Assembly: GCA_035540375.1 (NCBI GenBank)
Contig: DATLGO010000101.1
Span: 14,324-78,323, forward strand
DNA from: Thermoplasmatota archaeon
GTDB taxonomy: Archaea; Thermoplasmatota; SW-10-69-26; JACQPN01; JAJPHT01
DNA: 64,000 bases
Direction of reading: 5' to 3'
A program made the position numbers and the translations under genes. Shown here piece after piece: positions 7,117 to 59,684 of the stretch; the first letter of the stretch is position 1, and each line of letters opens with the position of its first letter. Under the pieces are notes generated by a model. It made no database searches, had not been told where the DNA came from, and saw only the letters and a program-made list of their open reading frames with translations.

Positions 7117-8139
7117 GTGCCCGACGAGCGCGAGTCCGACGCCGTGCGCGTGCCCCGCCGCGAGGGCGAGGCGGTGCGCGCGCGCCTCCTCGAGGAGGGT
7201 CGCCTCCGGACGGATTTGCGCATCCGCGGCGAGGGCGACGACCTCCTCATTCCCGTCGAGAGCGCCGCCGGTCTCGCGTGGCCCGTCGTCCGCGCGCCGT
7301 TCGAGCCGCAGAAGCAGCCCCCGCCCCCGTACGCGGAGGTCGCGCGCGTGCCGGACGACGTCCGCGCGCGCCTGCCGTCGAGCTACGACGTCGTGGGCTC
7401 GATCGTCCTCGTGAAGATCCCCGAGGATCTCCTTTCGCACAGGCGCGCGATCGGCGAGGCGCTTGTCGCGTCGATCAAGCCCGCGAAGACGGCGCTCCTC
7501 GACCGCGGCGTCAAGGGCGCGTTCCGCGTGCGCGACGTCGAGGTGCTCGCGGGCGAGCCGACCACCGAGACCGAGGTCGTGGAGAACGGCCTGCGCCTCG
7601 CGGTGGACGTCGCGACGTGCTACTTCTCGCCGCGCCTCGCGACCGAGCGCAAGCGCGTCGCGGACCTCGTCCGCCCGGGGGAACGCGTCCTCGACCTCTT
7701 CGCGGGCGTCGGCCCCTTCGCGCTCGCGATCGCGAAGCACGCGCGCCCCGCGCGTGTGGACGCGGTCGACTTGAATCCGGACGCGGTGAAGTATCTGAAG
7801 CGCAACATCGCGCGCAACAAGCTCGCGGCGCCCGTGACCGCGGCATGCGACGACGCGCGCGCGTTCGCGCGCGCGCATCCGGGCGCGTACGACCGCATCG
7901 TGATGAACCTCCCGCACACGGCGCGCGCCTTCTTCGCGGACGCGCTCGTGACGCTCGCGGCGGAGGGCGGCGTCGTGCACTTGCACGCCATCATGGACCC
8001 GGCGCGGGTCGAGGCGCTCGTCGCGGAGCTTCAGGGGGAGACGCCCCGCAGCGTGGCGCTGTCCGCGACGCGTGAGGTGCGCACGTACAGCCCGCAGGAG
8101 CGGCATCTCGCGCTCGATCTCTCGGTCGGGCCGGGATGA
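7117..8139 (+). CDS. trm5: tRNA (guanine37-N1)-methyltransferase, Trm5 type
   Basis: C-terminal Met-10+-like domain (VLDLFAGVGPFALA, NLPH), and the N-terminal region matches archaeal Trm5 (…LIPVE). There is no ATG; GTG at 7117 chosen, with GTG 7144 and TTG 7090 as alternatives. The 5' two-thirds of track ORF 6214..8139 is antisense junk. Confidence 0.75.
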   Translation: MPDERESDAVRVPRREGEAVRARLLEEGRLRTDLRIRGEGDDLLIPVESAAGLAWPVVRAPFEPQKQPPPPYAEVARVPDDVRARLPSSYDVVGSIVLVKIPEDLLSHRRAIGEALVASIKPAKTALLDRGVKGAFRVRDVEVLAGEPTTETEVVENGLRLAVDVATCYFSPRLATERKRVADLVRPGERVLDLFAGVGPFALAIAKHARPARVDAVDLNPDAVKYLKRNIARNKLAAPVTAACDDARAFARAHPGAYDRIVMNLPHTARAFFADALVTLAAEGGVVHLHAIMDPARVEALVAELQGETPRSVALSATREVRTYSPQERHLALDLSVGPG

Positions 8140-8206
8140 TGGGAACCTTTTAATGGCGGAACCATCTTTTCGGGCATCCCCCGGGGCATGCTCCGCGGTG
8201 CCGTTT

Positions 8207-8279
8207 GCCACCTTAGCTCAGTCGGTAGAGCAGCTGATTCGTAATCAGCAGGTCCAGGGTTCGAGTCCCTGAGGTGGCT
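8207..8279 (+). tRNA. tRNA-Thr (anticodon CGU)
   Basis: Hand-folded cloverleaf: 7-bp acceptor GCCACCT/AGGTGGC, D-stem GCTC/GAGC, anticodon stem GCTGA/TCAGC with loop TTCGTAA (anticodon CGT), T-stem CAGGG/CCCTG with TTCGAGT loop. No CCA is encoded. Confidence 0.85.
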
Positions 8280-8295
8280 TGGAAGGGGGTGGAGT

Positions 8296-8333
8296 TTGAG
8301 GAGGGGGAAGGCCGAAACCTTCCCCCTCCTCAA
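8296..8333 (+). terminator. perfect 16-bp GC-rich hairpin (TTGAGGAGGGGGAAGG-CCGAAA-CCTTCCCCCTCCTCAA) immediately 3' of tRNA-Thr
   Basis: Inverted repeat read directly from the sequence. Likely the tRNA 3' terminator or processing structure. Confidence 0.45.
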
Positions 8334-8504
8334 CCGCCCCCGCTCAAAATTCCAAATTTTCCAGCAGAGTCTCTGGAGCCGTTCGCCCCTTAGCGAAGGC
8401 CAACCGAGCGCGCGGCCGTGGGCGGAGGCCCCCACGGCCGCCGCGCGAGCCCACGGAACGCCCGGGCGCGGGCACCATCCTCCTTGGCCGAATGAGAACG
8501 CCCC

Positions 8505-8927
8505 TCACCCCACCCTGACCCCGACGCGCGCCGCCGCGTCCGCGAGCCGCGCGTCCTCCGTGAGGAGCCGCGCCTTGCGTCGCTCGGCGAGTTCGAGGTA
8601 CGCGGCGTCGTAGTACGAGAGGCCACACGCTTCCGCGAGTTCGCCGACGCGGCGCCGCACCGCGGGCGCGACGCCCTCGTCGAACGAGACGCCTTCGAGG
8701 AGCGCGTCCATGAGCGCCTGCCGCGCGGCGACGTCGGGGCCGAAGGCGCGCGCGGCCTTCCGGTGCACCACTTGCCCGACTTCCCAGACGAGGAGCGCGG
8801 GGGCGACGACGGCGCCGCGCTCGTGCGCCGCGGCGAGGGCGTCGAGCGCGGCCGCCTGGCGCGGGTCGTTGAGGTCGAGCGCCGCGAGAGCCGCGCTCGC
8901 GTCGAGGACGACGACGCGCGCGCTCAG
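8505..8927 (-). CDS. vapC: PIN-domain protein, VapC-like toxin
   Basis: The full PIN domain is readable on the minus strand (…VVVLDASAALAALDLNDP…WEV…YYDAAYLELAE…TEDARL…). There is no ATG/GTG/TTG upstream of GTG 8771 in this frame. The only candidate is a CTG at 8927 overlapping the TGA of the upstream gene. The track ORF covers only 8505..8771. Confidence 0.6.
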   Translation of the reverse strand: MSARVVVLDASAALAALDLNDPRQAAALDALAAAHERGAVVAPALLVWEVGQVVHRKAARAFGPDVAARQALMDALLEGVSFDEGVAPAVRRRVGELAEACGLSYYDAAYLELAERRKARLLTEDARLADAAARVGVRVG

Positions 8928-9142
8928 TGGCTCTCACGCTCGTCGCGCACGAGGTCGGCCGCGCGGCGCGGAAGGCGCACGGCGAGCGCGGCGAGTTTGC
9001 GGCGCTTCGCGTCGGCGAGGAGGCGGCGCGCCTCCTTCTCGAACGCCTGCCGGCCCACTTCGTTCGGGTTGAGGCCCGCCGCCGCGAGGTGCGCGAGGAC
9101 GTCGGCGGGGGCGCGGAACTGGACGACGCCGGAGGCGGCCAT
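8924..9142 (-). CDS. small putative antitoxin (VapB-like) upstream of the PIN gene
   Basis: 72-aa protein starting at MAASGVVQF. Its stop overlaps the PIN-gene start region, the classic toxin-antitoxin arrangement. Confidence 0.45.
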   Translation of the reverse strand: MAASGVVQFRAPADVLAHLAAAGLNPNEVGRQAFEKEARRLLADAKRRKLAALAVRLPRRAADLVRDERESH

Positions 9143-24870: not shown

Positions 24871-25422
24871 GTGGAAGCCTCCGGACTCTACAAGCTGAAC
24901 CCGGGCGACCGCGCGCCCGACTTCTCGCTTCCGGGCGTCGACGGCCGCCGCCACGCGCTCTCGGACTACGCGTCGAAGCCGGCGCTCGTGGTGGTCTTCT
25001 CGTGCAACCATTGCCCTTACGTGCGCGCCTACGAGGAGCGGATGATCGGCTTCGCGCTCGCGTACGAGCCGCGCGGGGTCGCGATGGTCGCCATCAACTC
25101 GAACGAGACCACGAGGTATCCCGAGGACGATTTCCCCCACATGGTCTCGCGCGCCGCGGACAAGGGATACACGTTCGATTATCTGCGCGACGAGGACCAG
25201 TCGGTCGCGCACGCCTACGGCGCCGTCTGCACGCCGCAGTTCATGCTCTTCGACGCCGACCGCCGCCTCCGTTACCAGGGCCGTTTCGACGACGAGAAGG
25301 ACCACCCGGAGAAGGTCAAGGAGAAATACCTCGAAAACGCGGTCGAAGACCTTCTCGCGGGACGCCCGGTCGCGAAGCCGGTGACGCGCGCGATCGGCTG
25401 CTCCATCAAGTGGAACGCGTGA
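24871..25422 (+). CDS. thioredoxin-fold redoxin (AhpC/TSA-like thiol-disulfide oxidoreductase)
   Basis: …PALVVVFSCNHCPYV… resolving motif followed by a thioredoxin-like fold. Confidence 0.7.
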   Translation: MEASGLYKLNPGDRAPDFSLPGVDGRRHALSDYASKPALVVVFSCNHCPYVRAYEERMIGFALAYEPRGVAMVAINSNETTRYPEDDFPHMVSRAADKGYTFDYLRDEDQSVAHAYGAVCTPQFMLFDADRRLRYQGRFDDEKDHPEKVKEKYLENAVEDLLAGRPVAKPVTRAIGCSIKWNA

Positions 25423-26566
25423 GACCCTCGTCGGGCTCGCCCGATTCCTCGAGCGTCTTGCCGATGCGCAGGAACCGCGATCGCGCCGTCACGCGCTCGA
25501 GCGCGGCGAGCCGCCGCCGCACCTCGCGCGGGGCCTCGGGGTCCGCCATGAGGGCGCGCACGCGCCTCTCGTCGACGTCGAGCGCGCGGTCGAGAAGCCC
25601 CGCCTCCGCGAGGACGCGTCGGGCCTCGTCGAGATCGAAGGCCCTGCTCGTGGCCTCCACCACCGTCACGGGGCGGCCCTCCCCGGCCTCCACGCGACGG
25701 ACCCCGCGCGCGTCCATGTAGGCGAGGATCTCGTCCGCGACGCCCGCCGCCTCGGCCTCGGCCGCCCGCGCCGTCTCCTTGAGCGCGACGTAGCGCCTCG
25801 CGAGGTCGCCCACGCCGCCGCCCGCGAACGGGAGCCGCTTTTCAGCCGACGGCGCGGTTTCCGCGAAGTATGGACAACGGTTCGCGAATTCGCACGGGCA
25901 TTCGCGATTGAGCCTCGGATCGAAGCGACCGGCCTCGATGGCCTCGGCGGTCGCGACCACGCGGTCCGCGATGGAGGCGACGGCGGCCCGGTCGTGCCGG
26001 GGCGCGCTCACGGGGACGTTCGAGCGGAGGTTGTGGAGCGTCAGGCGCTCCACGCGGCCGAAGAGGTCGTCGACCGCCATCTGGTAAAGCGTGAGCTGAC
26101 CGCTCGTCGCCGCGTCGCGGCGCGTCATCGCTCGCCGGCCCGACTTGTAGTCGACGATCGCGAAGCCGCCGCCCTCGCGGTCGACGCGGTCGATGAAACC
26201 CGTGACGGGCACCCCTTCGACGTCGATCGTGAACGGAAGCTCGACCGCGACCGGAGGCGCGAACCGGGGCGTCTCCGCGCGCCAGAACCGCTCGAGGACG
26301 GCCTCTCCCGCGGCGCGCTCGCGCGCGGCGGTCGCGGCGTCGGGGAAGCCGTCGTCGGACCACGCCTTGCGGTAGGCCTCGAGGGTCGCCTCGAGGGACG
26401 CCGGCCCGGGCTCGGCCGTCGCCCACGCTTCGAGGGCCTCGTGGAGGGCGCTTCCGAACGAGAAGTAGCCCTTCGGCGCCTGGGGAAGCCGGTCCACGTA
26501 AAGGAATCGCCACCGCAGCGGGCACCCCTCGTACGTCGACATCGACGACCAGCTCAGGCGCCGCAT
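25406..26566 (-). CDS. Cas4-like/RecB-family PD-(D/E)XK nuclease with 4-Cys cluster residues
   Basis: N-terminal LSWSSMSTYEGCPLRWRF, the core GFIDRVD…FAIVDYKSG (D…D/ExK), QLTLYQ (QhxxY) and C-terminal CPCEFANRCPYF. This matches the Cas4/AddB nuclease family pattern. Confidence 0.7.
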   Translation of the reverse strand: MRRLSWSSMSTYEGCPLRWRFLYVDRLPQAPKGYFSFGSALHEALEAWATAEPGPASLEATLEAYRKAWSDDGFPDAATAARERAAGEAVLERFWRAETPRFAPPVAVELPFTIDVEGVPVTGFIDRVDREGGGFAIVDYKSGRRAMTRRDAATSGQLTLYQMAVDDLFGRVERLTLHNLRSNVPVSAPRHDRAAVASIADRVVATAEAIEAGRFDPRLNRECPCEFANRCPYFAETAPSAEKRLPFAGGGVGDLARRYVALKETARAAEAEAAGVADEILAYMDARGVRRVEAGEGRPVTVVEATSRAFDLDEARRVLAEAGLLDRALDVDERRVRALMADPEAPREVRRRLAALERVTARSRFLRIGKTLEESGEPDEGLTRST

Positions 26567-28841
26567 GCAGGCGGTCGACGATGCGGGGCGGCTTGAGGCT
26601 TCCCCCGGAGTCGCGGCGCGAACGCGGAAGGCATTTCACGCCCGCCGCGCATCCGGGCGCGTGGACGACGAGACGCTCCGCAGCGTCGACCTCGCGAAGC
26701 GCCTCCGACGCGTCGTCCTCCACGTCGCCCGCGCGGTTCCCGACGGCGACCCCGCGGGCCGGGGCGCCTTCGGCAGCATCCTCGACGAGGAGGCGCCCCG
26801 GGTCGAGGCGAAGGCCGAGCGCGAAGCCGCGGCCTTCCTTCTCGTGGGACAGGCCCTCGCGTACCGCATCCTCGGACGCGACCGGCCGCTCCCGGCGGTT
26901 CCGCGCGGCCTCGACGGCGCGGGGCTCGCCGCCTTCTTCGGCGGAAGCGAGGCCGCGCGACGCCAGCCCGCGGCGTTCGCGCCGCGGCTTCCCGCCGTGC
27001 CGGCGCGCGCGGTGGACGCGACCCTCCGCGCGCTCGACGAGGCCCGCCCCGAGCGCCTCCCGGTGGACGTCCTCGGGAAGGTGTTCCACAACCTCATCCC
27101 GCGCGCCGTGCGGAAGGTCGTCGCCGCGTACTACACGAACTCGGAGGCCGCGGACCTTCTTGCGACGCTCACCGTCACCCACGCCGACGCGCGCGTCCTC
27201 GACCCCGCCTGCGGATCCGGCGCCCTGCTCATCGCCGCCTGGCGCGCGAAACGCGCCCTGGGCGGCGGCGCGCCCTCCGACCTCGAGGGGCGCGACGTCA
27301 TGCCGGCGAGCGCGCACCTCGCGGCCGTGCAGCTCGCGCTCCACGCGGGCGACGGGCCGCGCATCGCGCTCGCGGACGGAACGACGCGCGGACGCCACCC
27401 GCCCGTCGACGTGGTCCTGATGAACCCCCCGTTCACGCGTTTCCAGAGGCTCCCGCCCGCCCTGAAAGCGACCCTCCGGTCGCGCTTCGCGGACTATCCG
27501 GAGATCACGGGCCAGCTCGCGCTCCACGGTTACTTCCTCCTCCTCGCCGACCGCGTTCTCGCCCCGGGCGGGCGCCTCGGCGCCGTCCTCCCGGCCTCGA
27601 CCCTCTCGGGCAAGGCGTTCCAGGGCGTCGTCGAGCGCCTGCTCACCGACTACACCGTCGAGCACGTCGTGACGACGACGGGCCGGGCGGCCTTCAGCGA
27701 CGACGCGGACTTCCGCGAGGTCATGCTGGTCGCCGAGAAGCGTCCGCCGCGCGCGGGCCATCGCGTGCGCCTCGCGACGCTCGCGGACGACCCGTCGCGA
27801 TGGACGAGCGCGGTCGCGCGGGACCGGGCGGGTCGCATGGCGGATGCCGCCGGCGCCGGTCAGCCGCTCCAGGCTGCGCTTGCCCGCGACGGGCGCGCGC
27901 TCGCCGAGCGCCTCGCCCTCTCGACGGACCTCGGCCTCGCCGCCGTGAGCGCCCTCGACGTCGCCTTCGCGGGCCTTCCCGCGCTCGCGGAGGTCCTTCG
28001 GGGCCTCGACGCGACGGTGGAGGAGAGCCTCCGGGCCCCGGGTCGCGAGGGCGCCTTCGACCTCATCGTCCTGAGCGACCCCCTGCGGGCCCTCAAGCGG
28101 GTCGATCGTTGGGTGCTCGAGGACGGTTTTGCCTTCGACCGCGCGACCGGAAAGCGCGCGCCCTTCGATCCGGCGTCCGCGGCCCCCTGCCTGCGCCGCA
28201 TCAGCCAGTCGAGCCACCTCGCCCTCGAGGGACGCGAGGACTGGGTGGCCCTCGCGCCCCTCGACGGCGTGGCCCCTCCGCGCGGATGGGACCGATGGCG
28301 CGCCACCGTGACGCGCCACACGGGCCGCCTCGCGCTCCTCTACAAGATGGACCTGGGGGCTCCCGGAACGCGGGCGCTCGCGGTCCATCACCCGAAGGGC
28401 CTCTTTTGCGCGGGCGACGCCTGGCGCGTCGAGGCGGACGACGACGAGGCGCTTCGCATCCTCGCGCTCTGGCTCAACACCGCGAGCTTCGCCCTGGCGC
28501 TCGTCCGCGTGCGGTCCGAGACGCGCGGATCCTGGATCCGCCTCGACAAGGGTCTCATGGCCCGCATCCCGGCGCCGGATCCGGGCGCCCTCGACGCGGC
28601 GACGCGGCGGCGCCTCCTCGACCTCTACGAGCGCGCCCGCGAAGCGCCCCTCGGCTCGCTGTGGGAGGACGTGCGCGACCGCCGCGCGCCGCGCGTCGAC
28701 CTCGACCGCGCGTTCCTCGAGACGGTCAGGGCCCCCGACGGCACGCTCGAAGCGATCTACGCAGGCCTCGAGGCGGAGCTCGGAAACCTCCGCGCCGTTC
28801 TCAGATATGACGGGACGCCGCGTCGACCGTCGCCCAGATGA
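26565..28841 (+). CDS. large gamma-class N6-adenine DNA methyltransferase (Eco57I/HsdM-like) with a ~300-aa C-terminal extension
   Basis: Motif I VLDPACGSGALL precedes motif IV VVLMNPPF. This start overlaps the divergent nuclease start within GCATGC, so the true start may lie downstream. Confidence 0.65.
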   Translation: MQAVDDAGRLEASPGVAARTRKAFHARRASGRVDDETLRSVDLAKRLRRVVLHVARAVPDGDPAGRGAFGSILDEEAPRVEAKAEREAAAFLLVGQALAYRILGRDRPLPAVPRGLDGAGLAAFFGGSEAARRQPAAFAPRLPAVPARAVDATLRALDEARPERLPVDVLGKVFHNLIPRAVRKVVAAYYTNSEAADLLATLTVTHADARVLDPACGSGALLIAAWRAKRALGGGAPSDLEGRDVMPASAHLAAVQLALHAGDGPRIALADGTTRGRHPPVDVVLMNPPFTRFQRLPPALKATLRSRFADYPEITGQLALHGYFLLLADRVLAPGGRLGAVLPASTLSGKAFQGVVERLLTDYTVEHVVTTTGRAAFSDDADFREVMLVAEKRPPRAGHRVRLATLADDPSRWTSAVARDRAGRMADAAGAGQPLQAALARDGRALAERLALSTDLGLAAVSALDVAFAGLPALAEVLRGLDATVEESLRAPGREGAFDLIVLSDPLRALKRVDRWVLEDGFAFDRATGKRAPFDPASAAPCLRRISQSSHLALEGREDWVALAPLDGVAPPRGWDRWRATVTRHTGRLALLYKMDLGAPGTRALAVHHPKGLFCAGDAWRVEADDDEALRILALWLNTASFALALVRVRSETRGSWIRLDKGLMARIPAPDPGALDAATRRRLLDLYERAREAPLGSLWEDVRDRRAPRVDLDRAFLETVRAPDGTLEAIYAGLEAELGNLRAVLRYDGTPRRPSPR

Positions 28842-29385
28842 CGCGCTCGCGCCCCGCGAGACGTTCGAGGGGCGACGGAAGGACCTCTTCGAGCTTCATC
28901 GCGAAGTCCCGGTGGTATCGACCCGGCTGGCACCGGCCGCAGGACCACGACCCGCGCAGGGGAACGCGTCGCCGCCAGGCGGCGCGGCAGGTGACGCACC
29001 GATAGACGTACCGGAAGGTCGCGTTCTCCGGACCCAGGTCGTGGTCGCCGTTCGCGCGGACCCCGAGCCCTTCGAGGAGGTCGTGGAACCGCTCGGTGTG
29101 GGAGGTCTCGTTCGCGGCGGCGTAGAGGTGCGCGTGGACGACCTCGTGCTTGAGCGTCGCGTCGAGCTCCCGCCAGTAGTTCCGGTGGTGGAGGCGCTGG
29201 GGCTCGAGCAGGAAAAGGTAGGGGGAGAAGCGGACCGCCTTGCGGCGGAAGTAGATGAGGGCCCATGCGTTCGTCACGCGCCCCGAGAAGCGCAGATCGT
29301 GGGCCGGCGTGCGGCCTGGAAGCTCGCGCGCGACGTCGTTCCACCGCTTCCGCAGGACCTCTTCGAGGGCGAGCAGGGCCTCCAT
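28801..29385 (-). CDS. SprT-like zinc metalloprotease-domain protein
   Basis: HEVVHAHLY (HExxH) followed by a Zn-ribbon CVTC…CGRC. It converges on and overlaps the methyltransferase 3' end by 41 bp. Confidence 0.6.
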   Translation of the reverse strand: MEALLALEEVLRKRWNDVARELPGRTPAHDLRFSGRVTNAWALIYFRRKAVRFSPYLFLLEPQRLHHRNYWRELDATLKHEVVHAHLYAAANETSHTERFHDLLEGLGVRANGDHDLGPENATFRYVYRCVTCRAAWRRRVPLRGSWSCGRCQPGRYHRDFAMKLEEVLPSPLERLAGRERVIWATVDAASRHI

Positions 29386-29725
29386 GCCGGAACCGCGGGC
29401 CCCCGTCTCGCGCCCCCGGGATTTAAGGCCGCGACGGACGGCGCCGACGCCGTCGAGGGAACCTTCATGGCCCCCCGGCGGCCCCGCCCGCGTCGCCGCG
29501 GGAGGCAAGCTTCTTCACCCGCGGCCCGGATGGACGCGCGGCGCGATGAGGAGAAGAGGGTCAACGAGCCCCGGCTGTGACCGCACATTCTGACTGCATC
29601 CGAGCGCCGACCTTTCCACGCGGGCGGGCGCCCGGCGAGGCCATGCGCGGGAGCCTGCGCTGGGATCCCGGACGAGAAAAAAGGAGTCGCGCCGGGCGGG
29701 AACGACCGCCCGGCGGGAACGGGGC

Positions 29726-30181
29726 CTATCGGCGGCCCTTCTTGGCCTTGCCCTTCGGCTTGGCCTTGGAGACCTTCGTGGCCTTCTTGGCCTTGCCCTT
29801 CGGCTTGGCCTTGACCTTCGTCGCCTTCTTCACGGGCTTCGCGGTCTTCGTTCCCTTCTTCGTCTTCGCGGCGCGGCGGGCGGCGGCACGGGCCTTGCGG
29901 GCCTCGCGCTCGGCCTTGATCCGGGCCTCGCGGCGCTCCTTGCGGGCGGCGCGGTTCTTCTTCTGCTGGGCGCGGAGCGTGCGCCACTTGCTGCCCCCGA
30001 TCTTCCGGAGGACGGGCAGGCCCGTGCGGGCCACCGTCGAGACCTCCATGCCGGGGGGGATTTCAGCCTGCACACCGCTCTTGGGAGTGCGGCGCGAGAA
30101 GAAGTAGATCGTCTGCGTGCGACCGCCCTTGAGCGTCACGTTCTTCGAGTAGAGGGTGAACCCCTCGTGTTGGTAAGCCAT
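29726..30181 (-). CDS. putative chromatin/DNA-binding protein: ~65-aa globular N-domain plus H1-like Lys/Ala-rich tail
   Basis: N-terminal MAYQHEGFTLYSKNVTLKGGRTQTIYFFSRR…, then AKPKGKAKKATKV-type repeats over ~90 aa. Confidence 0.5.
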   Translation of the reverse strand: MAYQHEGFTLYSKNVTLKGGRTQTIYFFSRRTPKSGVQAEIPPGMEVSTVARTGLPVLRKIGGSKWRTLRAQQKKNRAARKERREARIKAEREARKARAAARRAAKTKKGTKTAKPVKKATKVKAKPKGKAKKATKVSKAKPKGKAKKGRR

Positions 30182-30399
30182 GTGGCATCCCGTACCAACA
30201 ATGTGGCGTACCATGATAAGGTTACTGGTAAACATCGGCGTTTCTTCCGTTGGAAACGCGGTTTGCCGGGAATGAAGCGATGCGGCGACGCGGGGACGCG
30301 GCCGGGACGCGTTGGTATCAACGCGGTCGCGCGCCGAGGGCGCAAGGCGCGCGCGAAGACGGAGCGCGAGGCCCGCCGCCCCATACGATCGCCTTTAGG

Positions 30400-44921: not shown

Positions 44922-46072
44922 CCGAGGCGGACGACCTCGAGCGGGTCGGCCTCGGCCGCGACGAAGCCGCCGCCTGGGCCGCGCTCGCGCGCGAGGGCCC
45001 GCTCACGGCCCCCGATATCGCCGCGCGCGTGGGCTTCGCCCGGTCGCGCGCCTACGAGGTCCTCCGCGGCCTCGAGGAGCGCGGCCTCGTCGAGGTGCTC
45101 CTCGGCGAGACGCGCCGCTACCGGGCCGTCGCGCTCGACCGCTACGTCGCGGGCGTGCTCGAAGCCGCGCGCGACGCCGAACGGACGGCCCGCGCGCGCC
45201 TCGGCCGCGCCCGCGCGCTCTTCCCCGAGCGCGAAGTCGTGGGCGCGGGCGGACTCGGCGCCGTGCGCGTCGCGGAAGGTCGTCGCGCCGCGCACGAAGC
45301 GTGGGCTCGCCTCCTGCGCGCCGCGAAGGAGAGCGCGCTCATCGTCGCGACGGGCCGCGCGACGCTGCGCTTTCTCGACACCCCCGAAGGCTCGGAGTCC
45401 TACGAAGCCGCGAAGGCGTCCGGCGTCGCCGTCCGCTTCGTGCTGCTTCCGGGCGACGAGCCGGAAGCCGCGCATCGCGCCGCCGAGATCCTCGCCTCCG
45501 ACGCCGAGATCGCCGTTCACGGAGACGGCGCCGTCACGCGGGTCGCGGTGGACGGCGGCCGCGTCGCCGTCGTCGCCCACGAGCGCGACGACGAGCGCGT
45601 GTACCTCGGCAACGACCTCCTCGTCGAGGCCGAATCCGCCGCCCTCGCGACGGACGTGCAGACCGAGGCGGCGCGCATCCTCGAACCCGCCGAGCCCGCG
45701 TTCGCCTTCGCCGGATCGGTCGCGGCGGCGTCGCGCCTGCTCGCCGGCGAGATCCGAGCCGCGCGCGCCGAGATCCTCGTCCTCGTCGGCGCCGGCGGCG
45801 CGTCCTTCGCGGAGGGCTCCGAGGAGCGGCGCGCGCTTCTCGAGGCCTCCGCCCGGGGCGCGCGTGTGCGCGTCGCGACCGCCGGCCCGTCGGACCTGCT
45901 CGGCCTCGTCGAGCCGGCGCTCGCGGACCTCGAAGGCGCCATCGTCATCGCGGACGGGGAGCGCATCGCGGAGTGGTACGGCGGGGCGGGCGCGCCGACC
46001 CTCGCCTTCGTCGCGCGAGACCCTGAACGCGCCCGCCTCGTCGCAAACCGGTTCGACGCGAGCCGCGCGTGA
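44918..46072 (+). CDS. second TrmB-family regulator (tandem paralog)
   Basis: GTG start overlaps the upstream stop (GTGA). HTH LTAPDIAARVGFARSRAYEVLRGLEERGLVE. The first ~1.5 kb of track ORF 43394..46072 is out-of-frame junk. Confidence 0.6.
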   Translation: MTEADDLERVGLGRDEAAAWAALAREGPLTAPDIAARVGFARSRAYEVLRGLEERGLVEVLLGETRRYRAVALDRYVAGVLEAARDAERTARARLGRARALFPEREVVGAGGLGAVRVAEGRRAAHEAWARLLRAAKESALIVATGRATLRFLDTPEGSESYEAAKASGVAVRFVLLPGDEPEAAHRAAEILASDAEIAVHGDGAVTRVAVDGGRVAVVAHERDDERVYLGNDLLVEAESAALATDVQTEAARILEPAEPAFAFAGSVAAASRLLAGEIRAARAEILVLVGAGGASFAEGSEERRALLEASARGARVRVATAGPSDLLGLVEPALADLEGAIVIADGERIAEWYGGAGAPTLAFVARDPERARLVANRFDASRA

Positions 46073-46137
46073 GAGATCTTTCGCCGACTGCACGGAAAAC
46101 GTTATCCCGCGCCGCGGTCGATGGGACAAGAACGAGG

Positions 46138-46341
46138 GTGACTCGCCTGTCGGACGGAGAAGTCAAGGAGCTTCGGGTGAAGATCGACGTGAGCTACCAC
46201 CTGAAGCTCCACGCCCTCAAGCTCCTCCGGAACAAGAAGATGAGCGAGGCCGTGGAGGAGGCGCTCGACTACTACTTCGAGCACGTCGTGAAGGGCGAAG
46301 AAGTGGTGGATCGCGAGGCCGAGATGCAGGAGTACGGCTGA
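46138..46341 (+). CDS. small ribbon-helix-helix-like DNA-binding protein
   Basis: …LSDGEVKELRVKIDVSYHLKLHALKLLRNKKMSEAVEEALDYYFEHV (beta-strand then two helices). GTG start at 46138 preferred over the track ATG at 46069. Confidence 0.35.
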   Translation: MTRLSDGEVKELRVKIDVSYHLKLHALKLLRNKKMSEAVEEALDYYFEHVVKGEEVVDREAEMQEYG

Positions 46342-46370
46342 TCGGTTTTCACGCGACCTTCCGGCCGGGC

Positions 46371-46388
46371 GGAAAAAGGGTTTTTACC
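46371..46388 (+). promoter_or_regulatory. candidate archaeal BRE/TATA element (ggaaaaagggTTTTTAcc) ~25 bp upstream of the hbd GTG; implies a leaderless mRNA
   Basis: A-rich stretch followed by an AT-rich box at the canonical distance from the start codon. Confidence 0.3.
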
Positions 46389-46411
46389 GGCCGAGCCCCG
46401 TCGCGAGACGC

Positions 46412-47389
46412 GTGTACGTCGACAAGGTCGCGGTCGTCGGCGCCGGAGCCATGGGCGCCGCCATCGCCGAGGTCATGGCGCTCAACGGCAAGAAGGTCGT
46501 CCTGAAGGACGTCTCCCAGGAATTCGTCGACCGCGGCCTCAAGACCATCGATGCGGTGCTCGATGATCTCGTGACCTTCCACGCCGGCAAGGCCGAAGCC
46601 GAGATCGAGCGGATCGAATCGAAGAACGGCATCACGCTCACCGAGGAGCAGAAGGCGAAGGTCCGCGAGGCGAACAAGGCGACCTACGACCGCGCCCGCG
46701 CCGACAAGATCCGCAGGAACATCCAGGGCACGACCTCGTACGACGACCTCGCGGACGTCGACTTCGTGATCGAGGCCGTCGTCGAGAAGATGCCCGTGAA
46801 GCAGCAGGTCTTCAAGGAGCTCGAAGCCGCGACCCAGAGCCACGTCGTGCTCGCGACCAACACGAGCACGCTGAGCATCACGGAGATCGCTTCCGCGGTG
46901 TCGGCGAAGCGCCGTCCGAAGGTGCTCGGCGCGCACTTCTTCAACCCGCCCTACACGCTGCCGCTCGTCGAGATCATCCCCGCCCACGAGACGAGCCCCG
47001 GCGTCGTCGAGGAGACCATCCAGTTCTTCGAGGAGCTGCGCAACCACCGCTTCCCGATGCTTCCGGTCGCCGTCAAGGAGACGCCGGGCTTCGTCGTGAA
47101 CCGCATCCTCGGGCGCGCGTTCAACGAGGCGTTCCTCGTCTACGAGGAGGGGATCGCCTCCCCGCGCGACATCGACAAGGCGATGAAGGCCGGCGCGGGT
47201 TGGCCGATGGGACCGCTCGAGCTCGCCGACCTCGTCGGGATCGACGTGCTCTACCACGCGGGCCGCAGCATGAAGGAGATGGGCGCGCCCGCCGAGCAGC
47301 GCCTGCCCCAGATCATCGGCAAGCTCTACCACTCGGGCCGCTGGGGAAAGAAGGTGGGTCGCGGGTTCTACGATTACAAGAACGAGTAG
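46412..47389 (+). CDS. hbd: 3-hydroxyacyl-CoA (3-hydroxybutyryl-CoA) dehydrogenase
   Basis: NAD-binding VAVVGAGAMGAAIA, catalytic region with …ATNTSTLSITEIA…, and a C-terminal dimerisation domain. Confidence 0.85.
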   Translation: MYVDKVAVVGAGAMGAAIAEVMALNGKKVVLKDVSQEFVDRGLKTIDAVLDDLVTFHAGKAEAEIERIESKNGITLTEEQKAKVREANKATYDRARADKIRRNIQGTTSYDDLADVDFVIEAVVEKMPVKQQVFKELEAATQSHVVLATNTSTLSITEIASAVSAKRRPKVLGAHFFNPPYTLPLVEIIPAHETSPGVVEETIQFFEELRNHRFPMLPVAVKETPGFVVNRILGRAFNEAFLVYEEGIASPRDIDKAMKAGAGWPMGPLELADLVGIDVLYHAGRSMKEMGAPAEQRLPQIIGKLYHSGRWGKKVGRGFYDYKNE

Positions 47390-47496
47390 GTCCCTCAACG
47401 GGCATAGTTGAGGACTGCGCGGGCACTCACAAGGTCCAGTGGACATAGGGATCGTGGTTGAGCCGTTTCCCCGACCGTCCCGCGGCCTCTGAACGG

Positions 47497-48552
47497 CTAG
47501 AACAGGTCCTCGAGCCCACCTTGGAGCTCTGACAGCCCGCCGCATTCAGGGCAGGAGCGTTCATATAGTTCCTCGGTGGCCTTTTCCACGAAGTGATAGA
47601 AGGCGTGATTGAATGCAAGCCCGCACGACTTGCACTCGTAGTCGAGCATGCGAGGTGAAGAATCGCTGATCTTGCGAGTCCGCCGCCCTCGAGAGGGGAC
47701 CGACCGCACAGGCCTTTCGTACTCGAGGCAAGAATGCGAACGCATGTCGCGTTTGGTATCGAATGTTTCACCGCAGCTGTCGCAAGTCGCCGGCTGGCTT
47801 GCCTCCCACTCCCTGTACGCGCGTTGCGCTTCGCGCTCGGAGATCACTGCGGGGCACGCTTGAATGTGGTCCGATAGGGTATCCTCCGAAGCCTGCGCTT
47901 TCCCGCACGCACTGCACGGGTAGTGGCGCTTCGAATAGTTGTGACCACGGAGACCGGCCTCCGAGTCGAACGTCTTTCCGCACAGATCACATGCAAACGA
48001 GGGAACATCCCACGGTTGCACTCGAGCGTCATCAACCTCCGCTTCGACGACCCCCGAGACCTGACGAGCGCCCTCCGCATCGGTTGCGCCTGTCCAGATG
48101 TGCCCGACCGGCTCGACATCATGTATTAGTGCGGGGAGGCTGGCCGCAGCGACACCCTCGGCTGGGGAAGAGCTTACCCCGGCCGGCAGCGCATATCGCG
48201 CCTCGCGCTCGGGCTGAGGACTGCCGAACCCGCACTGACGCGCATGATCATCCCGCCACACCTCTCTTGAGTATTTTGCGCCGCACCCGGGGTAAGGGCA
48301 GACCGAATCCGCCGCTGCCATGTTAACGGACTTAGTAGTGTACGATGGGATAGTGGAGTCCCCGCCCGGGAGGAACGTGTACCCCTTGTGCTTGATGAAG
48401 AGCCAAGGGATCCCGACGTAGAACGTGTAGAAGAACGCCCCAAAGAACGCTCCTGCGACTACGTTCGAATTGAGACTCGCGAGGGCGGGGATGGCAGAAA
48501 TGGCTGCGAAGAACCACTTGTAGCCGTTCCATAACTTGCCCATCTCACGCAC
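47497..48552 (-). CDS. membrane-anchored protein with ~5 C2H2/C2HC-type zinc-finger motifs
   Basis: Two N-terminal TM helices; fingers CPYPGCGAKYSREVWRDDHARQC, CDLCGKTFDSEAGLRGHNYSKRH, CSACGKAQASEDTLSDHIQAC, CDSCGETFDTKRDMRSHSC and CKSCGLAFNHAFYHF, plus CPECGG. Confidence 0.55.
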   Translation of the reverse strand: MREMGKLWNGYKWFFAAISAIPALASLNSNVVAGAFFGAFFYTFYVGIPWLFIKHKGYTFLPGGDSTIPSYTTKSVNMAAADSVCPYPGCGAKYSREVWRDDHARQCGFGSPQPEREARYALPAGVSSSPAEGVAAASLPALIHDVEPVGHIWTGATDAEGARQVSGVVEAEVDDARVQPWDVPSFACDLCGKTFDSEAGLRGHNYSKRHYPCSACGKAQASEDTLSDHIQACPAVISEREAQRAYREWEASQPATCDSCGETFDTKRDMRSHSCLEYERPVRSVPSRGRRTRKISDSSPRMLDYECKSCGLAFNHAFYHFVEKATEELYERSCPECGGLSELQGGLEDLF

Positions 48553-48634
48553 CCCCTCCCCCTAACTGAACCTTGAATATGTAAGCTTGTCCGAAAACTT
48601 GCGTGGGTGTCATCGTTGCCTCGACCCAAGCAGC

Positions 48635-49021
48635 TCACGTTGCAGCGAGCATGACGGACGCGAGTGGCCTTCCCTGGCCCCGATATGCGCTCCGGCGTTC
48701 CTCGGCGAGAGGGTAGCTCGTAATAACCGTCACGAGCTCTCGATCGATCGCAACGACGAAGACGCCGTCCTGCCCAGCGACGTCCACGACCGCGTGCCAC
48801 GCGCCGGCTGGCGCAGGAAAGTAGCGAGCGTGGAGCAGCTTCTGGCGAATCTGCCCTTCGGTCAACCCCGCCCCTTGCCAGCGGGTTGCAGCACGGAATC
48901 GCGCGTGCATCGTCAGGACTACTGCCAGGCTCGCAAAGATTTCGACACTCCAATGGATCGAGGCGAGGTCCCCGAGTGTGGCGACACTCGCGTTGCGGGG
49001 TTCTCGGCGCATACGACTCAC
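48635..49021 (-). CDS. hypothetical protein (weak resemblance to DUF4258-type small toxin domains)
   Basis: …HARYFPAPAGAWHAVVDVAGQDGVFVVAIDRELVTVITSYPL…. Assignment is tentative. Confidence 0.35.
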   Translation of the reverse strand: MSRMRREPRNASVATLGDLASIHWSVEIFASLAVVLTMHARFRAATRWQGAGLTEGQIRQKLLHARYFPAPAGAWHAVVDVAGQDGVFVVAIDRELVTVITSYPLAEERRSAYRGQGRPLASVMLAAT

Positions 49022-50197
49022 CTAAGCGGTACGCCTGCGGTGGCGCGCGACCGCGATGATCGACACCGCAGCGAGCGTGAGGACCAGCACGACGATCAGG
49101 TTGCGCGCGAAGTGCTCGGGAGACATTGCCGTGTCCCCCCAGCACCAACCCCCCGAGCACGGCTGCGTGTTGGAGAGCGTCAAGGCGTTGGTCACGGGCT
49201 CAGTTGTCACAGTCTCGTTTGTGACGGGCGCCCGCCCGTTCGTTCGCTCGCCGGTGAAGAACGGCAGCAATCCAGAGACGTCTTCACCCTCGATGCGGTC
49301 GTACTTGTCGCCGCTGTGATCTTGGAGATCTTGCGTGTACTGGCCCGTCAGCACCTCGGCCTGAACAGTGACGGTCTCTGTGTGCTGCTCGACGCGGTGC
49401 TTGCTCGCCGCGGCCTGGATGATCGGCGGCGTACCGCGCGTGTATCCGCCGTTCGGGCTGCTGCCGGTTGCAAAATCGAGCTCACTCCACTGGTACGCGT
49501 AATTCGAGCCGTTCGGCATGGCGAGCCGGCCTCGCCACACGATCTGCGGAGGGAGGTGATCAAGCTCCAGGACGGCGTAGGCGACGCCCGGCGCGTCCGA
49601 CTGGATGGGGGCGGAGGTCGAGTTCAGCAGCGCACCCTTCGCAGCTTGGGTCCCGCTCCAAGCCTGCAACTCCACGGTCGCTCCTGAAAGGTTCACGCCG
49701 GGGGCCGGCGAAAACAGCAGAGTCAGGGTGTCCGAGCTCCACCCGCGGTTGAAGAGCATCAAGTCTTGGCCGCTCGGGCGGATCGGACTCGCGGTAGGCC
49801 ACGACAGAGAGATGGTGCGCCAAATGAGCCGCCCATCCTGCATGGGTTCAGGGGCGCCAGATATGCTCAGCGCGGGCGCTCCGCGAACGCTGATGATCGC
49901 GGTCAGAACGCCGGCCGCCAGCCCACCAGCATCATCCGGAAGGGTTCCGGTCGCCGTGATCCCTTGCAGCGAGGCGGAGCCCTTGTCCGAGGTAACGCTC
50001 TGCGTGACGCTTCCGACGGAAGCGCCGTTGCGCTCCAAGGTAAGCGTGATGGGCGTAGCAGAGTCGTTCGAGAGGACGACGAGATCCTTCAACGTGACGC
50101 TGAGGTAGACCGGTGCGGCTGTGGTGGTTTGCGCTTGTGCGGGCATGCTCGCAGCGAGCATGAGCAGGATCGAAAGAGTGGGGATGTAGCTCTTCAT
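49022..50197 (-). CDS. secreted Thr/Ser-rich surface protein with a C-terminal TM anchor
   Basis: Signal peptide MKSYIPTLSILLMLAASMPAQA; C-terminal …LIVVLVLTLAAVSIIAVARHRRRTA. 4-nt overlap with the upstream gene. Confidence 0.5.
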   Translation of the reverse strand: MKSYIPTLSILLMLAASMPAQAQTTTAAPVYLSVTLKDLVVLSNDSATPITLTLERNGASVGSVTQSVTSDKGSASLQGITATGTLPDDAGGLAAGVLTAIISVRGAPALSISGAPEPMQDGRLIWRTISLSWPTASPIRPSGQDLMLFNRGWSSDTLTLLFSPAPGVNLSGATVELQAWSGTQAAKGALLNSTSAPIQSDAPGVAYAVLELDHLPPQIVWRGRLAMPNGSNYAYQWSELDFATGSSPNGGYTRGTPPIIQAAASKHRVEQHTETVTVQAEVLTGQYTQDLQDHSGDKYDRIEGEDVSGLLPFFTGERTNGRAPVTNETVTTEPVTNALTLSNTQPCSGGWCWGDTAMSPEHFARNLIVVLVLTLAAVSIIAVARHRRRTA

Positions 50198-50955
50198 GCG
50201 TTTGCCTCCGTGTGCTTGTTGATGTCTTCTGTTAGGCGGCGCTGCCACGTGCGGAACTCCTTCCGGCGGGCGACGCCTTCGTACGTGTCGACGAAGAGGT
50301 GGAGCGGAAATTCCAGGAGCGGAACGATGGACGGGCCGGCGTCGGACGGCTTCGACTCGTCGACGTGGCACCAGGTGACCCACCTGTCCGGCTTGTAGAG
50401 CGAGACGATCGAGCGCACGTGCTCGTTGAACATCCGCTCTCCCTCGCCGGGGCCAGTGACGCCCGCAAATGCCATCACATGCCCCGCGAGGCTCTGTACC
50501 GGCAGGTATCCCCCGACCGTATTTTTCAGGCCGAGCTCTTGGATCTCCTCCTGCGCAAGCATGACGTCCGAGATCGTGCGCTCGTGGAAGGCGATGAAGA
50601 GCGGCGTGTTAAGGCCGAGGTAGCTCGGCGTCTCAGCGGCGCCCTTGCTTCCATCTGCGTTCGAGTCCGCCATCGCCGCGTAGAGCACCTCAAGGATCGG
50701 TCCTTCGACCGCGTCCAACTGCTCCGGAAGCCAAGTGGGGTTCGCGACGATCTGGATGATCGCGCGAGGGTGCTGCGAGAGAAGGCTGGACAGGCAATCC
50801 TGCGTCGTCTGCTGTCTCGTGACGATTGCCCCATCGCCCTTGGAAGGGATTGGGGTGTTGGCCTTGGTCCCGGGCGGCAGGCCTTGAGGCTTCGGCGCGG
50901 TGCGGAGCCGAGCAACGGCTTCGAAGTCATTTGCCTTCGACGTGGAACGGCTCAC
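50194..50955 (-). CDS. hypothetical protein
   Basis: 253 aa of mixed composition; 4-nt overlaps on both sides, consistent with an operon. Confidence 0.45.
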   Translation of the reverse strand: MSRSTSKANDFEAVARLRTAPKPQGLPPGTKANTPIPSKGDGAIVTRQQTTQDCLSSLLSQHPRAIIQIVANPTWLPEQLDAVEGPILEVLYAAMADSNADGSKGAAETPSYLGLNTPLFIAFHERTISDVMLAQEEIQELGLKNTVGGYLPVQSLAGHVMAFAGVTGPGEGERMFNEHVRSIVSLYKPDRWVTWCHVDESKPSDAGPSIVPLLEFPLHLFVDTYEGVARRKEFRTWQRRLTEDINKHTEANA

Positions 50956-51752: not shown

Positions 51753-51988
51753 GGTATTTCCTCAGCAGCCTCATGTCGTCATGTGCTGCTGGTCGGGAGA
51801 TTGCCTTCGAGAGCATCTTCTGCTTGGCCCTGAGTCACCTATTCTAAAAAGAGCAACGTCCGCCTTGAGTAGGTGCCTACCCTGATCGTACGCCACTCTC
51901 CAGTCGGTAGGCTTGTTCCTATTGAGAATCACTGTTACGAGAATTGTTTTATCCTTCAAACGCCGCTCATCGGTTCGGGAGACAGTAA
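51753..51988. promoter_or_regulatory. AT-rich divergent intergenic region between the two island operons
   Basis: Contains ctattctaaaaagag, gaattgttttatcc, and inverted repeat CAGCAGC-n15-GCTGCTG at 51766-51794 next to the minus-gene start. Confidence 0.35.
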
Positions 51989-56222: not shown

Positions 56223-56287
56223 ACGATGATGCGGAGCGGACACTCGACGCTATTAGGCTCGAACGAATCCTAATCGGCGCACTCGCT

Positions 56288-57721: not shown

Positions 57722-57734
57722 GGAGGGAACGGAC

Positions 57735-59512: not shown

Positions 59513-59684
59513 GCAACCCCGCCCATCCACGGCGAAGGGCGCGGATGAGCTTTGCCGGGACAGGGTCTTTCGCGACCCGTCGACGTTTTCGTCGTCCCGT
59601 CGTCGCGACCGCTCCGGGTTTTTACTCCCGGGAGGCGTCCCGAAGCGAAAGTGGTTATGTACCCGCGGGCGCCTCATCCGCCCC

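What the first reader, a model, noticed from the sequence alone, without database searches (positions are those of the whole stretch)
25406..29385. Cas4-like nuclease and a large N6-adenine methyltransferase with overlapping divergent starts, flanked by a SprT-like protease
The minus-strand Cas4/RecB-family nuclease has a PD-(D/E)XK core and four Cys (C13 plus CPCEFANRCPYF). Its ATG at 26566 overlaps the plus-strand ATG at 26565 of a 758-aa gamma-class N6-adenine methyltransferase, inside a GCATGC palindrome. The methyltransferase has motif I DPACGSG, motif IV NPPF and a ~300-aa C-terminal candidate target-recognition region. Two divergent starts sharing the same bases leave no promoter space, so one start is probably internal. 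The methyltransferase and nuclease adjacency, with a convergent SprT-like HExxH/Zn-ribbon protein overlapping the methyltransferase 3' end, resembles a non-canonical restriction-modification or defence module. Cas4-like nucleases occur in several defence and repair contexts. No CRISPR array or other cas genes are present.
Basis: partly seen in the sequence, partly recalled or inferred. Interest (0 to 1): 0.55.

Follow-up and report, generated by a model that had tools for sequence, protein, structure and literature searches.

The report
Three unrelated DNA genes, chance neighbours
The nuclease, DNA methyltransferase and protease genes are all real, but they sit together only in this one archaeal strain, so they look like chance neighbours and not a new defence system; the methyltransferase is a restriction enzyme relative that has lost its DNA-cutting domain.

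Summary
The three ORFs, their motifs and the overlaps are real. The window comes from a roughly 72% GC Candidatus Thermoplasmatota MAG.

- **Start overlap.** The ATG/ATG overlap comes from reading the longest ORF. The nuclease start, ATG 26566, is supported by a conserved MRxLSxS N-terminus. The first 32 methyltransferase codons have no homology, non-coding composition and pLDDT below 50. The likely start is GTG 26661, as in the NCBI protein record, which leaves a 94-bp divergent intergenic region.
- **Methyltransferase.** It belongs to an archaeal BpuSI-like type IIG family of about 970-990 aa. It lacks that family's N-terminal PD-ExK nuclease domain and an internal insertion of about 55 aa. 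It keeps the connector, all catalytic motifs and the target-recognition domain. It is most likely a solitary m6A DNA methyltransferase.
- **Nuclease.** It is a PF12705 AdnA/AddB/Cas4-like Fe-S exonuclease with a C-terminal domain shared with actinophage RecB-like exonucleases. The family is common in Thermoplasmata and Elusimicrobia. None of the 80 best related loci carries a methyltransferase, SprT or AhpC neighbour.
- **SprT-like gene.** It is conserved in Thermoplasmatota but in a different neighbourhood.
- **Verdict.** The adjacency is strain-specific, so the defence-module reading is not supported. This is an ordinary finding.

The parts
25406..26566 (-). Stand-alone PF12705 Cas4/AddB/AdnA-like PD-(D/E)XK exonuclease, 386 aa; start ATG 26566
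   Evidence: Pfam PDDEXK_1 at 2e-38. The family alignment conserves MRxLSxS from residue 1. AlphaFold model pLDDT 90.5. Best PDB fold matches are the AdnA nuclease domain, then ACE1, RecE, Dna2 and Cas4.
26138..26191 (-). Nuclease catalytic core, D126 ... D139-Y-K141 (sequence DRVDREGGGFAIVDYKSG)
   Evidence: These columns are invariant in alignment A2; translation.
25865..25903 (-). C-terminal cysteine triad C223, C225, C231 (ECPCEFANRCPYF). Together with C15 (codon at 26522-26524) it forms the inferred [4Fe-4S] site.
   Evidence: All four cysteines are invariant or nearly invariant in the family; translation. Cluster binding is inferred from Cas4/AddB (PMC5704561).
25409..25834 (-). Conserved C-terminal domain of the nuclease, residues about 245-386: a long helix followed by an alpha/beta unit
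   Evidence: Conserved in the roughly 375-400 aa homologues and confidently modelled. Covered by phrog_69 'exonuclease' and phrog_434 'RecE-like' and by 390-400 aa actinophage RecB-like exonucleases. No significant Pfam match; DUF7376 at E=0.005 is below the cut-off.
26567..26660 (.). Probable 94-bp divergent intergenic region, read by the first stage as methyltransferase codons 1-32
   Evidence: GC3 0.75 and GC2 0.66, which is non-coding-like. No homology. pLDDT below 50. The only A+T-rich spot is ATTT at 26633-26636, about 26 nt upstream of GTG 26661. Reading this as a TATA-like element is inference only.
26661..28841 (+). Solitary gamma-class N6-adenine DNA methyltransferase, 726 aa from GTG 26661 (longest ORF starts at 26565). 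It is a type IIG (BpuSI-like) enzyme lacking the N-terminal nuclease domain.
26667..27059 (+). Helical connector region, residues about 35-165 in 758-aa numbering. In homologues it links the nuclease and methyltransferase domains.
   Evidence: Aligns to homologue residues about 125-270. Helical in the model.
27201..27221 (+). Motif I, DPACGSG (AdoMet binding)
   Evidence: invariant columns in A1.
27423..27434 (+). Motif IV, NPPF (catalytic)
   Evidence: invariant in A1.
27795..28805 (+). C-terminal target-recognition region, residues about 411-747
   Evidence: Aligns along the C-terminal 500 residues of homologues. The family profile also matches the C-terminal region of BpuSI. BpuSI, CamA and M.BseCI are the top fold matches over 620-790 alignment columns.
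28801..29385 (-). SprT-like Zn-metalloprotease with Zn-ribbon, 194 aa. HEVVH at 29134-29148 and CxxC...CxxC at 28930-28998. An independent conserved gene.
   Evidence: Pfam SprT-like. 93 homologues at 47-69% identity, with Thermoplasmatota the only source organism named. The 194-aa start is supported. Different synteny elsewhere.

Best explanation
These are three functionally independent chromosomal genes of a Thermoplasmatota archaeon that happen to be adjacent.

1. **Methyltransferase (26661-28841).** It descends from a single-polypeptide type IIG restriction-modification enzyme of the BpuSI-like kind, built as nuclease, helical connector, gamma-class N6-adenine methyltransferase and target-recognition domain. 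It has lost the N-terminal PD-ExK nuclease domain. What remains is a self-contained enzyme that should bind a specific, probably asymmetric, DNA sequence through its own recognition domain and transfer a methyl group from AdoMet to adenine N6. That makes it a solitary (orphan) DNA methyltransferase with no cognate restriction activity.
2. **Nuclease (25406-26566).** It belongs to a vertically conserved family of stand-alone Cas4/AddB/AdnA-like Fe-S PD-(D/E)XK exonucleases carrying an extra C-terminal domain. It most likely processes DNA ends during recombination or repair.
3. **SprT-like protein.** It is the lineage's conserved Zn-metalloprotease, plausibly acting in DNA-protein crosslink repair.

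The two divergent genes are separated by about 94 bp of promoter DNA and do not share start bases.

**Shown:** domain identities, loss of the nuclease domain, retention of the catalytic motifs, the start-site evidence, and the lack of conserved adjacency. **Inferred:** enzymatic activities, methylation specificity, and biological roles.
For: **Methyltransferase**
- 95 homologues, mostly 960-1000 aa, from DPANN and Asgard archaea plus a Halorubrum virus protein named 'type IIG'.
- The alignment shows a conserved N-terminal domain of about 120 aa with a KPD...(I/L)E(A/G)K motif. The window protein lacks it, and also lacks an insertion of about 55 aa.
- The family profile's best PDB match is BpuSI, including its nuclease and C-terminal regions. 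BpuSI is also the best fold match at 1.8e-18, followed by the solitary methyltransferases CamA and M.BseCI and by PglX.
- No remnant of the lost nuclease domain exists anywhere in the 64 kb; the best hit has E=0.57.
- All 56 invariant family columns are kept, including DPACGSG and NPPF.
- GC3 of 0.92 matches the host genome, so the gene is well adapted to it.
- There is archaeal precedent. H. volcanii HVO_A0237 is a type IIG homologue that lacks the endonuclease domain (PMC4389544).

**Nuclease**
- 5555 relatives, many of 375-400 aa with the same two-domain architecture.
- 559 relatives in GTDB genomes. The top 80 are Thermoplasmata and Elusimicrobia.
- In Thermoplasmata the gene lies in a conserved neighbourhood of TFB, a VIT1-like gene, an ABC transporter, ribosomal protein S2 and enolase.
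- None of the 80 loci has a methyltransferase, SprT or AhpC neighbour.
- Fold matches are AdnA, ACE1, RecE, Dna2 and Cas4 and phage RecB-like exonucleases.

**SprT:**

**Starts:**
Against: - Nothing was tested experimentally. Methylation activity and target motif are unknown.
- The pair is divergently transcribed from a short shared region, which could allow co-regulation.
- Both the methyltransferase and this nuclease are distant from their relatives (about 30% and 33-42% identity). No close relative of either exists in the databases, so conservation of the pair could only be tested at long range.
- Only 64 kb of the genome was examined. A cognate nuclease, or the canonical copy of the Cas4-like gene, could lie elsewhere.
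- Some PF12705 proteins (the UvrD-Cas4 fusions) do associate with methyltransferases and defence loci (PMC5704561).
Confidence: 0.8

Rival explanations
1. Split restriction-modification system. The type IIG-derived methyltransferase with its recognition domain lost its own nuclease domain. It now recruits the divergently encoded Cas4-like exonuclease in trans, through the retained helical connector, to cut unmethylated target DNA.
For: - The genes are adjacent and divergently transcribed from a 94-bp region.
- The connector that couples nuclease and methyltransferase in BpuSI-type enzymes is retained.
- A split arrangement was proposed for H. volcanii HVO_A0006 and HVO_A0237 (PMC4389544). In locus L010 the type IIG nuclease domain is a separate upstream ORF.
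- UvrD-Cas4 fusions associate with type III restriction-modification systems and with Dcm (PMC5704561).
Against: - The nuclease is not homologous to the lost type IIG nuclease domain. It belongs to a family of widespread stand-alone exonucleases.
- None of 80 related loci has a methyltransferase neighbour, and the closest metagenomic homologues do not either.
- Another truncated homologue, P0062, has no Cas4-like Pfam hit among its neighbours.
- The nuclease fold points to processive end-processing enzymes, not site-specific endonucleases.
Confidence: 0.06
2. The methyltransferase is an inactive relic. It would be a decaying fragment of a type IIG gene that no longer methylates DNA.
For: - It has lost the N-terminal domain and an internal segment of about 55 aa between motif I and motif IV, with many smaller deletions (758 aa against about 980 aa).
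- It is only about 30% identical to its nearest relatives.
- From memory, not checked here: later H. volcanii methylome work assigned no motif to the truncated type IIG homologue.
Against: - The ORF is intact at 726-758 aa, with GC3 of 0.92 throughout.
- Every invariant family residue is retained, including motifs I and IV.
- The methyltransferase and recognition domains model confidently, with many 10-residue blocks at pLDDT 80-97.
- The protein sequence is identical in assemblies from several samples.
Confidence: 0.12

Closest known systems
RM.BpuSI and related single-polypeptide type IIG/IIS restriction-modification enzymes (PDB 3s1s; PMC3185434)
   Same: It shares the helical connector, the gamma-class N6-adenine methyltransferase domain (motif I, NPPF) and the C-terminal target-recognition domain. 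BpuSI is the best profile-sequence and fold match. The 960-1000 aa archaeal homologues have the full BpuSI-like architecture, including PD-x(n)-ExK.
   Different: The window protein has no N-terminal nuclease domain and no remnant of one in 64 kb. It also lacks an insertion of about 55 aa between motifs I and IV. It cannot be a restriction enzyme on its own.
Solitary gamma-class DNA adenine methyltransferases with a fused recognition domain (CamA of C. difficile, M.BseCI); the truncated type IIG homologue HVO_A0237 of Haloferax volcanii (PMC4389544)
   Same: One polypeptide carries the methyltransferase and recognition domains with no nuclease. CamA and M.BseCI are the second-best fold matches over about 620-670 columns. 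HVO_A0237 is an archaeal type IIG homologue missing the endonuclease domain.
   Different: Sequence identity to CamA and M.BseCI is only 10-14%. The window protein keeps the type IIG helical connector. No direct comparison with HVO_A0237 was run.
AdnA/AddB nuclease domains and PF12705 'Cas4-like' proteins, including actinophage RecB-like/Cas4-family exonucleases (PMC5704561)
   Same: It has the PD-(D/E)XK core with the QxxxY motif and the 1+3 cysteine pattern. The best PDB matches are the AdnA nuclease domain at 27-28% identity over about 240 columns. Phage exonucleases of 390-400 aa also match the C-terminal domain.
   Different: It is stand-alone with no helicase fusion. It is not next to cas genes or a CRISPR array. 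It scores far below the Cas4 equivalog cut-off (22.9 bits against 65). The role of the C-terminal domain is unknown.
SprT/Spartan/Wss1-type Zn-metalloproteases (PF10263)
   Same: It has the HExxH motif and a C-terminal Zn-ribbon, and scores above the Pfam gathering threshold.
   Different: It scores far below the bacterial SprT equivalog cut-off (32.6 bits against 113). It represents a Thermoplasmatota-specific subfamily whose function has not been tested.

Membership tests
Type IIG restriction-modification enzyme (BpuSI/MmeI-like) | N-terminal PD-(D/E)XK endonuclease domain in the same polypeptide | tested here: not met
   Homology to the family starts at profile position 135, which is about residue 35. 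The alignment shows the domain is absent. There is no remnant in the six-frame translation of the window.
Type IIG restriction-modification enzyme (BpuSI/MmeI-like) | Gamma-class N6-adenine methyltransferase domain with motif I (xxGxG) and motif IV (NPPF/Y) | tested here: met
   PF02384 at 6.5e-17 and PF07669. DPACGSG and NPPF are present and invariant in A1.
Type IIG restriction-modification enzyme (BpuSI/MmeI-like) | C-terminal target-recognition domain homologous to that of family members | tested here: met
   Alignment runs to the C-terminus of the homologues. The family profile matches BpuSI residues 741-825. BpuSI fold match over 787 columns.
Type IIG restriction-modification enzyme (BpuSI/MmeI-like) | AdoMet-stimulated site-specific cleavage | not testable with these tools
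   This needs biochemistry. It is not expected without a nuclease domain.
Solitary (orphan) DNA N6-adenine methyltransferase | Intact methyltransferase and recognition domains with no cognate restriction endonuclease gene nearby | tested here: met
   No type IIG nuclease domain in 64 kb. The neighbours are an AhpC-family redoxin, a histidine kinase, SprT, a thioesterase and an AAA-TPR regulator. The adjacent Cas4-like gene is not associated with methyltransferases elsewhere. Only 64 kb of the genome was seen.
Solitary (orphan) DNA N6-adenine methyltransferase | Demonstrable m6A modification of a specific motif | not testable with these tools
   This needs SMRT or nanopore methylome data, or heterologous expression.
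CRISPR-associated Cas4 (TIGR00372 / PF01930) | Score above the equivalog cut-off and location in a cas adaptation module | tested here: not met
   TIGR00372 scores 22.9 bits against a cut-off of 65. The Pfam hit is PF12705, not PF01930. No cas genes appear among the called neighbours. No dedicated CRISPR array search of the whole window was run.
PF12705 Cas4-like / RecB-AddB-AdnA nuclease family | PD-(D/E)XK catalytic residues, the QxxxY motif and four Fe-S cysteines (one N-terminal, three C-terminal) | tested here: met
   PF12705 at 2e-38 over the full profile, positions 1-247. Invariant D126, D139, K141, Q157, Y161, C15, C223, C225 and C231. AdnA fold match.
Known defence systems in PADLOC (BREX, MADS, Druantia, DISARM and others) | Match to a system-specific model together with the system's other genes | tested here: not met
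   Only generic MTase_II and MTase_I hits, mad2 at 8.7e-16 confined to the methyltransferase domain, DruK at 1e-4, and Cas4. NCBIfam MAD2 scores 27.7 bits against 720, and PglX 23 against 500. No partner genes in the neighbourhood.
SprT-like metalloprotease (PF10263) | HExxH Zn-binding motif within a SprT-like domain scoring above the gathering threshold | tested here: met
   31.3 bits against a cut-off of 25.6. HEVVH at residues 80-84 and a CxxC...CxxC ribbon.

The most novel reading that the evidence does not exclude
A type IIG-derived methyltransferase with its recognition domain has discarded its own endonuclease domain. It now works with the divergently transcribed stand-alone Cas4/AdnA-like Fe-S exonuclease as a two-gene, non-canonical restriction-modification system. 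The retained helical connector would serve as the docking surface.
Probability: 0.05. Interest if true: 0.6.

Novelty: new member of a known kind. Interest (0 to 1): 0.15.

Why it matters
The finding matters little beyond annotation.
- **Start codons.** It corrects two start codons, for the methyltransferase and for SprT. It supports the longer start for the nuclease against one gene caller.
- **Another truncated type IIG case.** It documents an archaeal type IIG enzyme reduced to a solitary methyltransferase. Such enzymes are candidates for epigenetic rather than defensive roles.
- **An uncharacterised nuclease family.** It points to a conserved family of stand-alone Cas4-like exonucleases of about 380 aa in Thermoplasmata and Elusimicrobia. 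Their C-terminal domain is shared with phage recombination exonucleases and their cellular role is uncharacterised.
- **If the split-system reading were true.** It would show a new way of reassembling restriction activity. The comparative evidence argues against it.

Tried and rejected
- **Contig look-up of the NCBI methyltransferase record (P0001).** Nothing was on record. The nuclease protein P0097 was used instead and gave four same-strain contigs.
- **The search for related loci with nuclease alignments A2 and A3.** Both failed for lack of a conserved stretch.
- **Single-protein scan of GTDB genomes.** It found no close relative of the nuclease.
- **Six-sequence nuclease alignment A4.** This one worked.
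- **AhpC-SprT synteny.** I considered that the methyltransferase and nuclease might be an insertion between AhpC and SprT, because relatives have a redoxin next to SprT. I rejected this. The relatives' redoxin and SPOUT genes have no homologue in the window, and the orientation differs.
- **CRISPR-type Cas4, BREX PglX, MADS MAD2 and Druantia DruK.** All score far below their family cut-offs or match only generic domains.
- **RNA methyltransferase.** Rejected, because the relatives are type IIG, CamA and BseCI DNA methyltransferases with recognition domains.
- **Sigma-70 promoter scan.** Not run, because the organism is an archaeon.
- **Greedy longest-ORF selection in the neighbourhood clustering.** It picked many antisense shadow ORFs in these high-GC genomes. 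Only clusters with recognisable proteins were used.
Full report
**Source and observation**

The window is about 72% G+C. The methyltransferase protein is identical to an NCBI record from a 'Candidatus Thermoplasmatota archaeon' MAG.

All three ORFs exist as described.
- ORF 25406-26566(-), 386 aa, matches PF12705 PDDEXK_1 at E=2e-38 across the whole profile.
- ORF 26565-28841(+), 758 aa, matches PF02384 N6_Mtase at 6.5e-17, plus Eco57I and MmeI_Mtase.
- ORF 28801-29508(-) matches PF10263 SprT-like.
- DPACGSG, NPPF, ECPCEFANRCPYF and HEVVH were verified by translation.
- The N-terminal cysteine is C15, not C13.
- CATG at 26564-26567 gives opposed ATGs. Any CATG does so.

**Start codons**

A family alignment of 22 nuclease homologues conserves MRxLSxS...CP from the first residue. 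ATG 26566 is therefore the real nuclease start. One gene caller chose M9 instead.

For the methyltransferase, four results agree that residues 1-32 are not part of the protein.
- Composition is non-coding-like: GC3 0.75 and GC2 0.66, against 0.92 and 0.55 downstream.
- Family-HMM homology begins at about residue 35.
- pLDDT is 31-36 for residues 1-33.
- The NCBI protein begins at V33, which is GTG 26661.

The two genes are thus separated by about 94 bp (26567-26660).

The SprT ORF is likewise 194 aa, starting at ATG 29385.

The 41-bp methyltransferase/SprT overlap lies beyond the end of the methyltransferase family alignment. The conservation of the SprT tail, and of the 17-bp nuclease/AhpC overlap, was not examined.

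**The methyltransferase**

Its 95 detectable homologues are only about 30% identical. Most are 960-1000 aa and come from DPANN and Asgard archaea. One is a Halorubrum virus protein annotated as type IIG.

Pairwise and multiple alignments show two features in the homologues that the window protein lacks.
- An extra N-terminal domain of about 120 aa with a conserved KPD...(I/L)E(A/G)K motif, which is a PD-x(n)-ExK nuclease signature.
- An insertion of about 55 aa between motif I and NPPF.

A profile of the family matches RM.BpuSI best in the PDB. The match includes BpuSI's N-terminal nuclease region and its C-terminal recognition region. BpuSI is the structurally characterised type IIG enzyme with an N-terminal PD-x15-ExK nuclease, a helical connector, a methyltransferase and a recognition domain (PMC3185434).

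The AlphaFold model of the window protein (pLDDT 77, pTM 0.76) has BpuSI as its best fold match at 1.8e-18. Next come the solitary methyltransferases CamA and M.BseCI, then BREX PglX.

No trace of the missing nuclease domain exists in any frame of the 64 kb; the best hit has E=0.57. All invariant family residues are retained. Codon composition matches the host.

The simplest reading is a type IIG enzyme reduced to a solitary, probably active, N6-adenine DNA methyltransferase. Similar truncated or split forms exist elsewhere.
- P0062 lacks the nuclease domain.
- P0077 has it as a separate upstream ORF.
- H. volcanii has HVO_A0237 and HVO_A0006 (PMC4389544).

PADLOC and NCBIfam give only generic or far sub-threshold hits to MAD2, PglX and HsdM.

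**The nuclease**

A full HMMER scan of 1.84 billion representative proteins finds 5555 relatives. Many are 375-400 aa and align end to end. Others are the C-terminal domains of proteins of 1000-1300 aa.

Invariant residues are C15, H42, E109, D126, D139-Y-K141, Q157, Y161, C223, C225 and C231. This is the Cas4/AddB pattern of a PD-(D/E)XK site plus a four-cysteine cluster.

The model is confident, with pLDDT 90.5.
- Its nuclease domain best matches the AdnA nuclease domain of mycobacterial AdnAB at 27-28% identity. ACE1, RecE, Dna2, Cas4, AddA and Exo5 follow.
- The C-terminal domain of about 140 aa has no Pfam family.
- That domain is covered by phrog_69 and phrog_434 exonuclease families and by 390-400 aa actinophage RecB-like exonucleases.

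Hudaiberdiev et al. describe PF12705 Cas4-like proteins as not CRISPR-associated. They find defence links only for the UvrD- or COG1205-linked subfamilies (PMC5704561).

**Is the adjacency conserved?**

It is not.
- Contigs with the identical nuclease protein and the same gene order turn up in four samples, so they count as one observation.
- The closest metagenomic nuclease homologues lie beside YjbQ, DnaG, or RadC and FGGY genes.
- A GTDB-wide scan found 559 relatives. The best 80, from 80 species, are Thermoplasmata and Elusimicrobia.
- With flanks of up to 8 kb, none of these 80 loci has a methyltransferase of this family by tblastn (E<=1e-5) or by family HMM (E<=0.01). None has a SprT or AhpC homologue.
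- In Thermoplasmata the gene sits in a conserved housekeeping neighbourhood of TFB, nuclease, a VIT1-like gene and an ABC transporter, with ribosomal protein S2 and enolase upstream.
- A full-length methyltransferase homologue stands alone among housekeeping genes.
- The SprT-like protein has 93 homologues at 47-69% identity. In two long contigs it lies between a redoxin and a SPOUT gene, and neither gene is present in the window.

**Conclusion**

The locus contains three genes.
- A solitary, type IIG-derived m6A DNA methyltransferase.
- A conserved stand-alone Cas4/AdnA-like end-processing exonuclease.
- A conserved SprT-like protease.

They are adjacent by chance in one lineage, and they have ordinary, non-overlapping starts.

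A split restriction-modification reading cannot be formally excluded, because both proteins are very divergent and nothing was tested experimentally. I give it about 5%.

Noticed in passing
window 46000-58000: G+C drops to 0.58-0.64 against about 0.72 elsewhere. Most large ORFs here have no Pfam match. The exceptions are a 472-aa Tubulin/FtsZ-family GTPase (54804-56222, +; PF00091 at 1.6e-16, plus Tubulin_2) and a C2H2 zinc-finger/Zn-ribbon protein (47497-48552, -). An RCC1-repeat protein follows at 58520-60469(-), and tRNA-Gln lies at 62838-62916(-). The region looks like a horizontally acquired island or integrated element carrying a tubulin-like gene.
   Followed up: partly
L014-L093 (Thermoplasmata loci), match at about 8001-9120 in most: The family of Cas4/AdnA-like nucleases of about 375 aa with a phage-exonuclease-like C-terminal domain lies in one conserved neighbourhood across many Thermoplasmata MAGs. 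That neighbourhood is TFB, nuclease, a VIT1/ferritin-like gene and an ABC transporter, near ribosomal protein S2 and enolase. Close homologues also occur in Elusimicrobia, which suggests inter-domain transfer. The family has not been characterised.
   Followed up: partly
L010 5533-5976 and 6001-8454; L009 5761-8301: Other members of the type IIG family are also split or truncated. In L010 the PD-ExK nuclease domain is a separate 147-aa ORF 25 nt upstream of an 817-aa methyltransferase-recognition ORF, and its motif reads GEGEW with no lysine. In L009 an 846-aa homologue lacks the domain. It sits beside a 1380-aa P-loop protein and an N6_N4 methyltransferase, which may be a defence island.
   Followed up: partly
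window 29726-30235 (-): An ORF of 151-169 aa between the SprT and thioesterase genes has no Pfam match. Its C-terminal tail is strongly lysine-rich (KKGTKTAKPVKKATKVKAKPKGKAKKATKVSKAKPKGKAKKGRR), reminiscent of histone-tail or DNA-binding low-complexity regions.
   Followed up: no
L001 14831-16921 (not mapped to window coordinates): A 696-aa protein with two PLDc_2 domains lies a few genes beyond the histidine kinase. It could be a cardiolipin-synthase-like enzyme or a PLD-family nuclease. It was not examined.
   Followed up: no
L097 6416-8235; L098 5525-8229: In other Thermoplasmatota, the SprT-like gene is flanked by a divergent AhpC/redoxin gene and a co-directional SPOUT (PF04013) methyltransferase gene. 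This arrangement appeared in both long contigs examined.
   Followed up: partly
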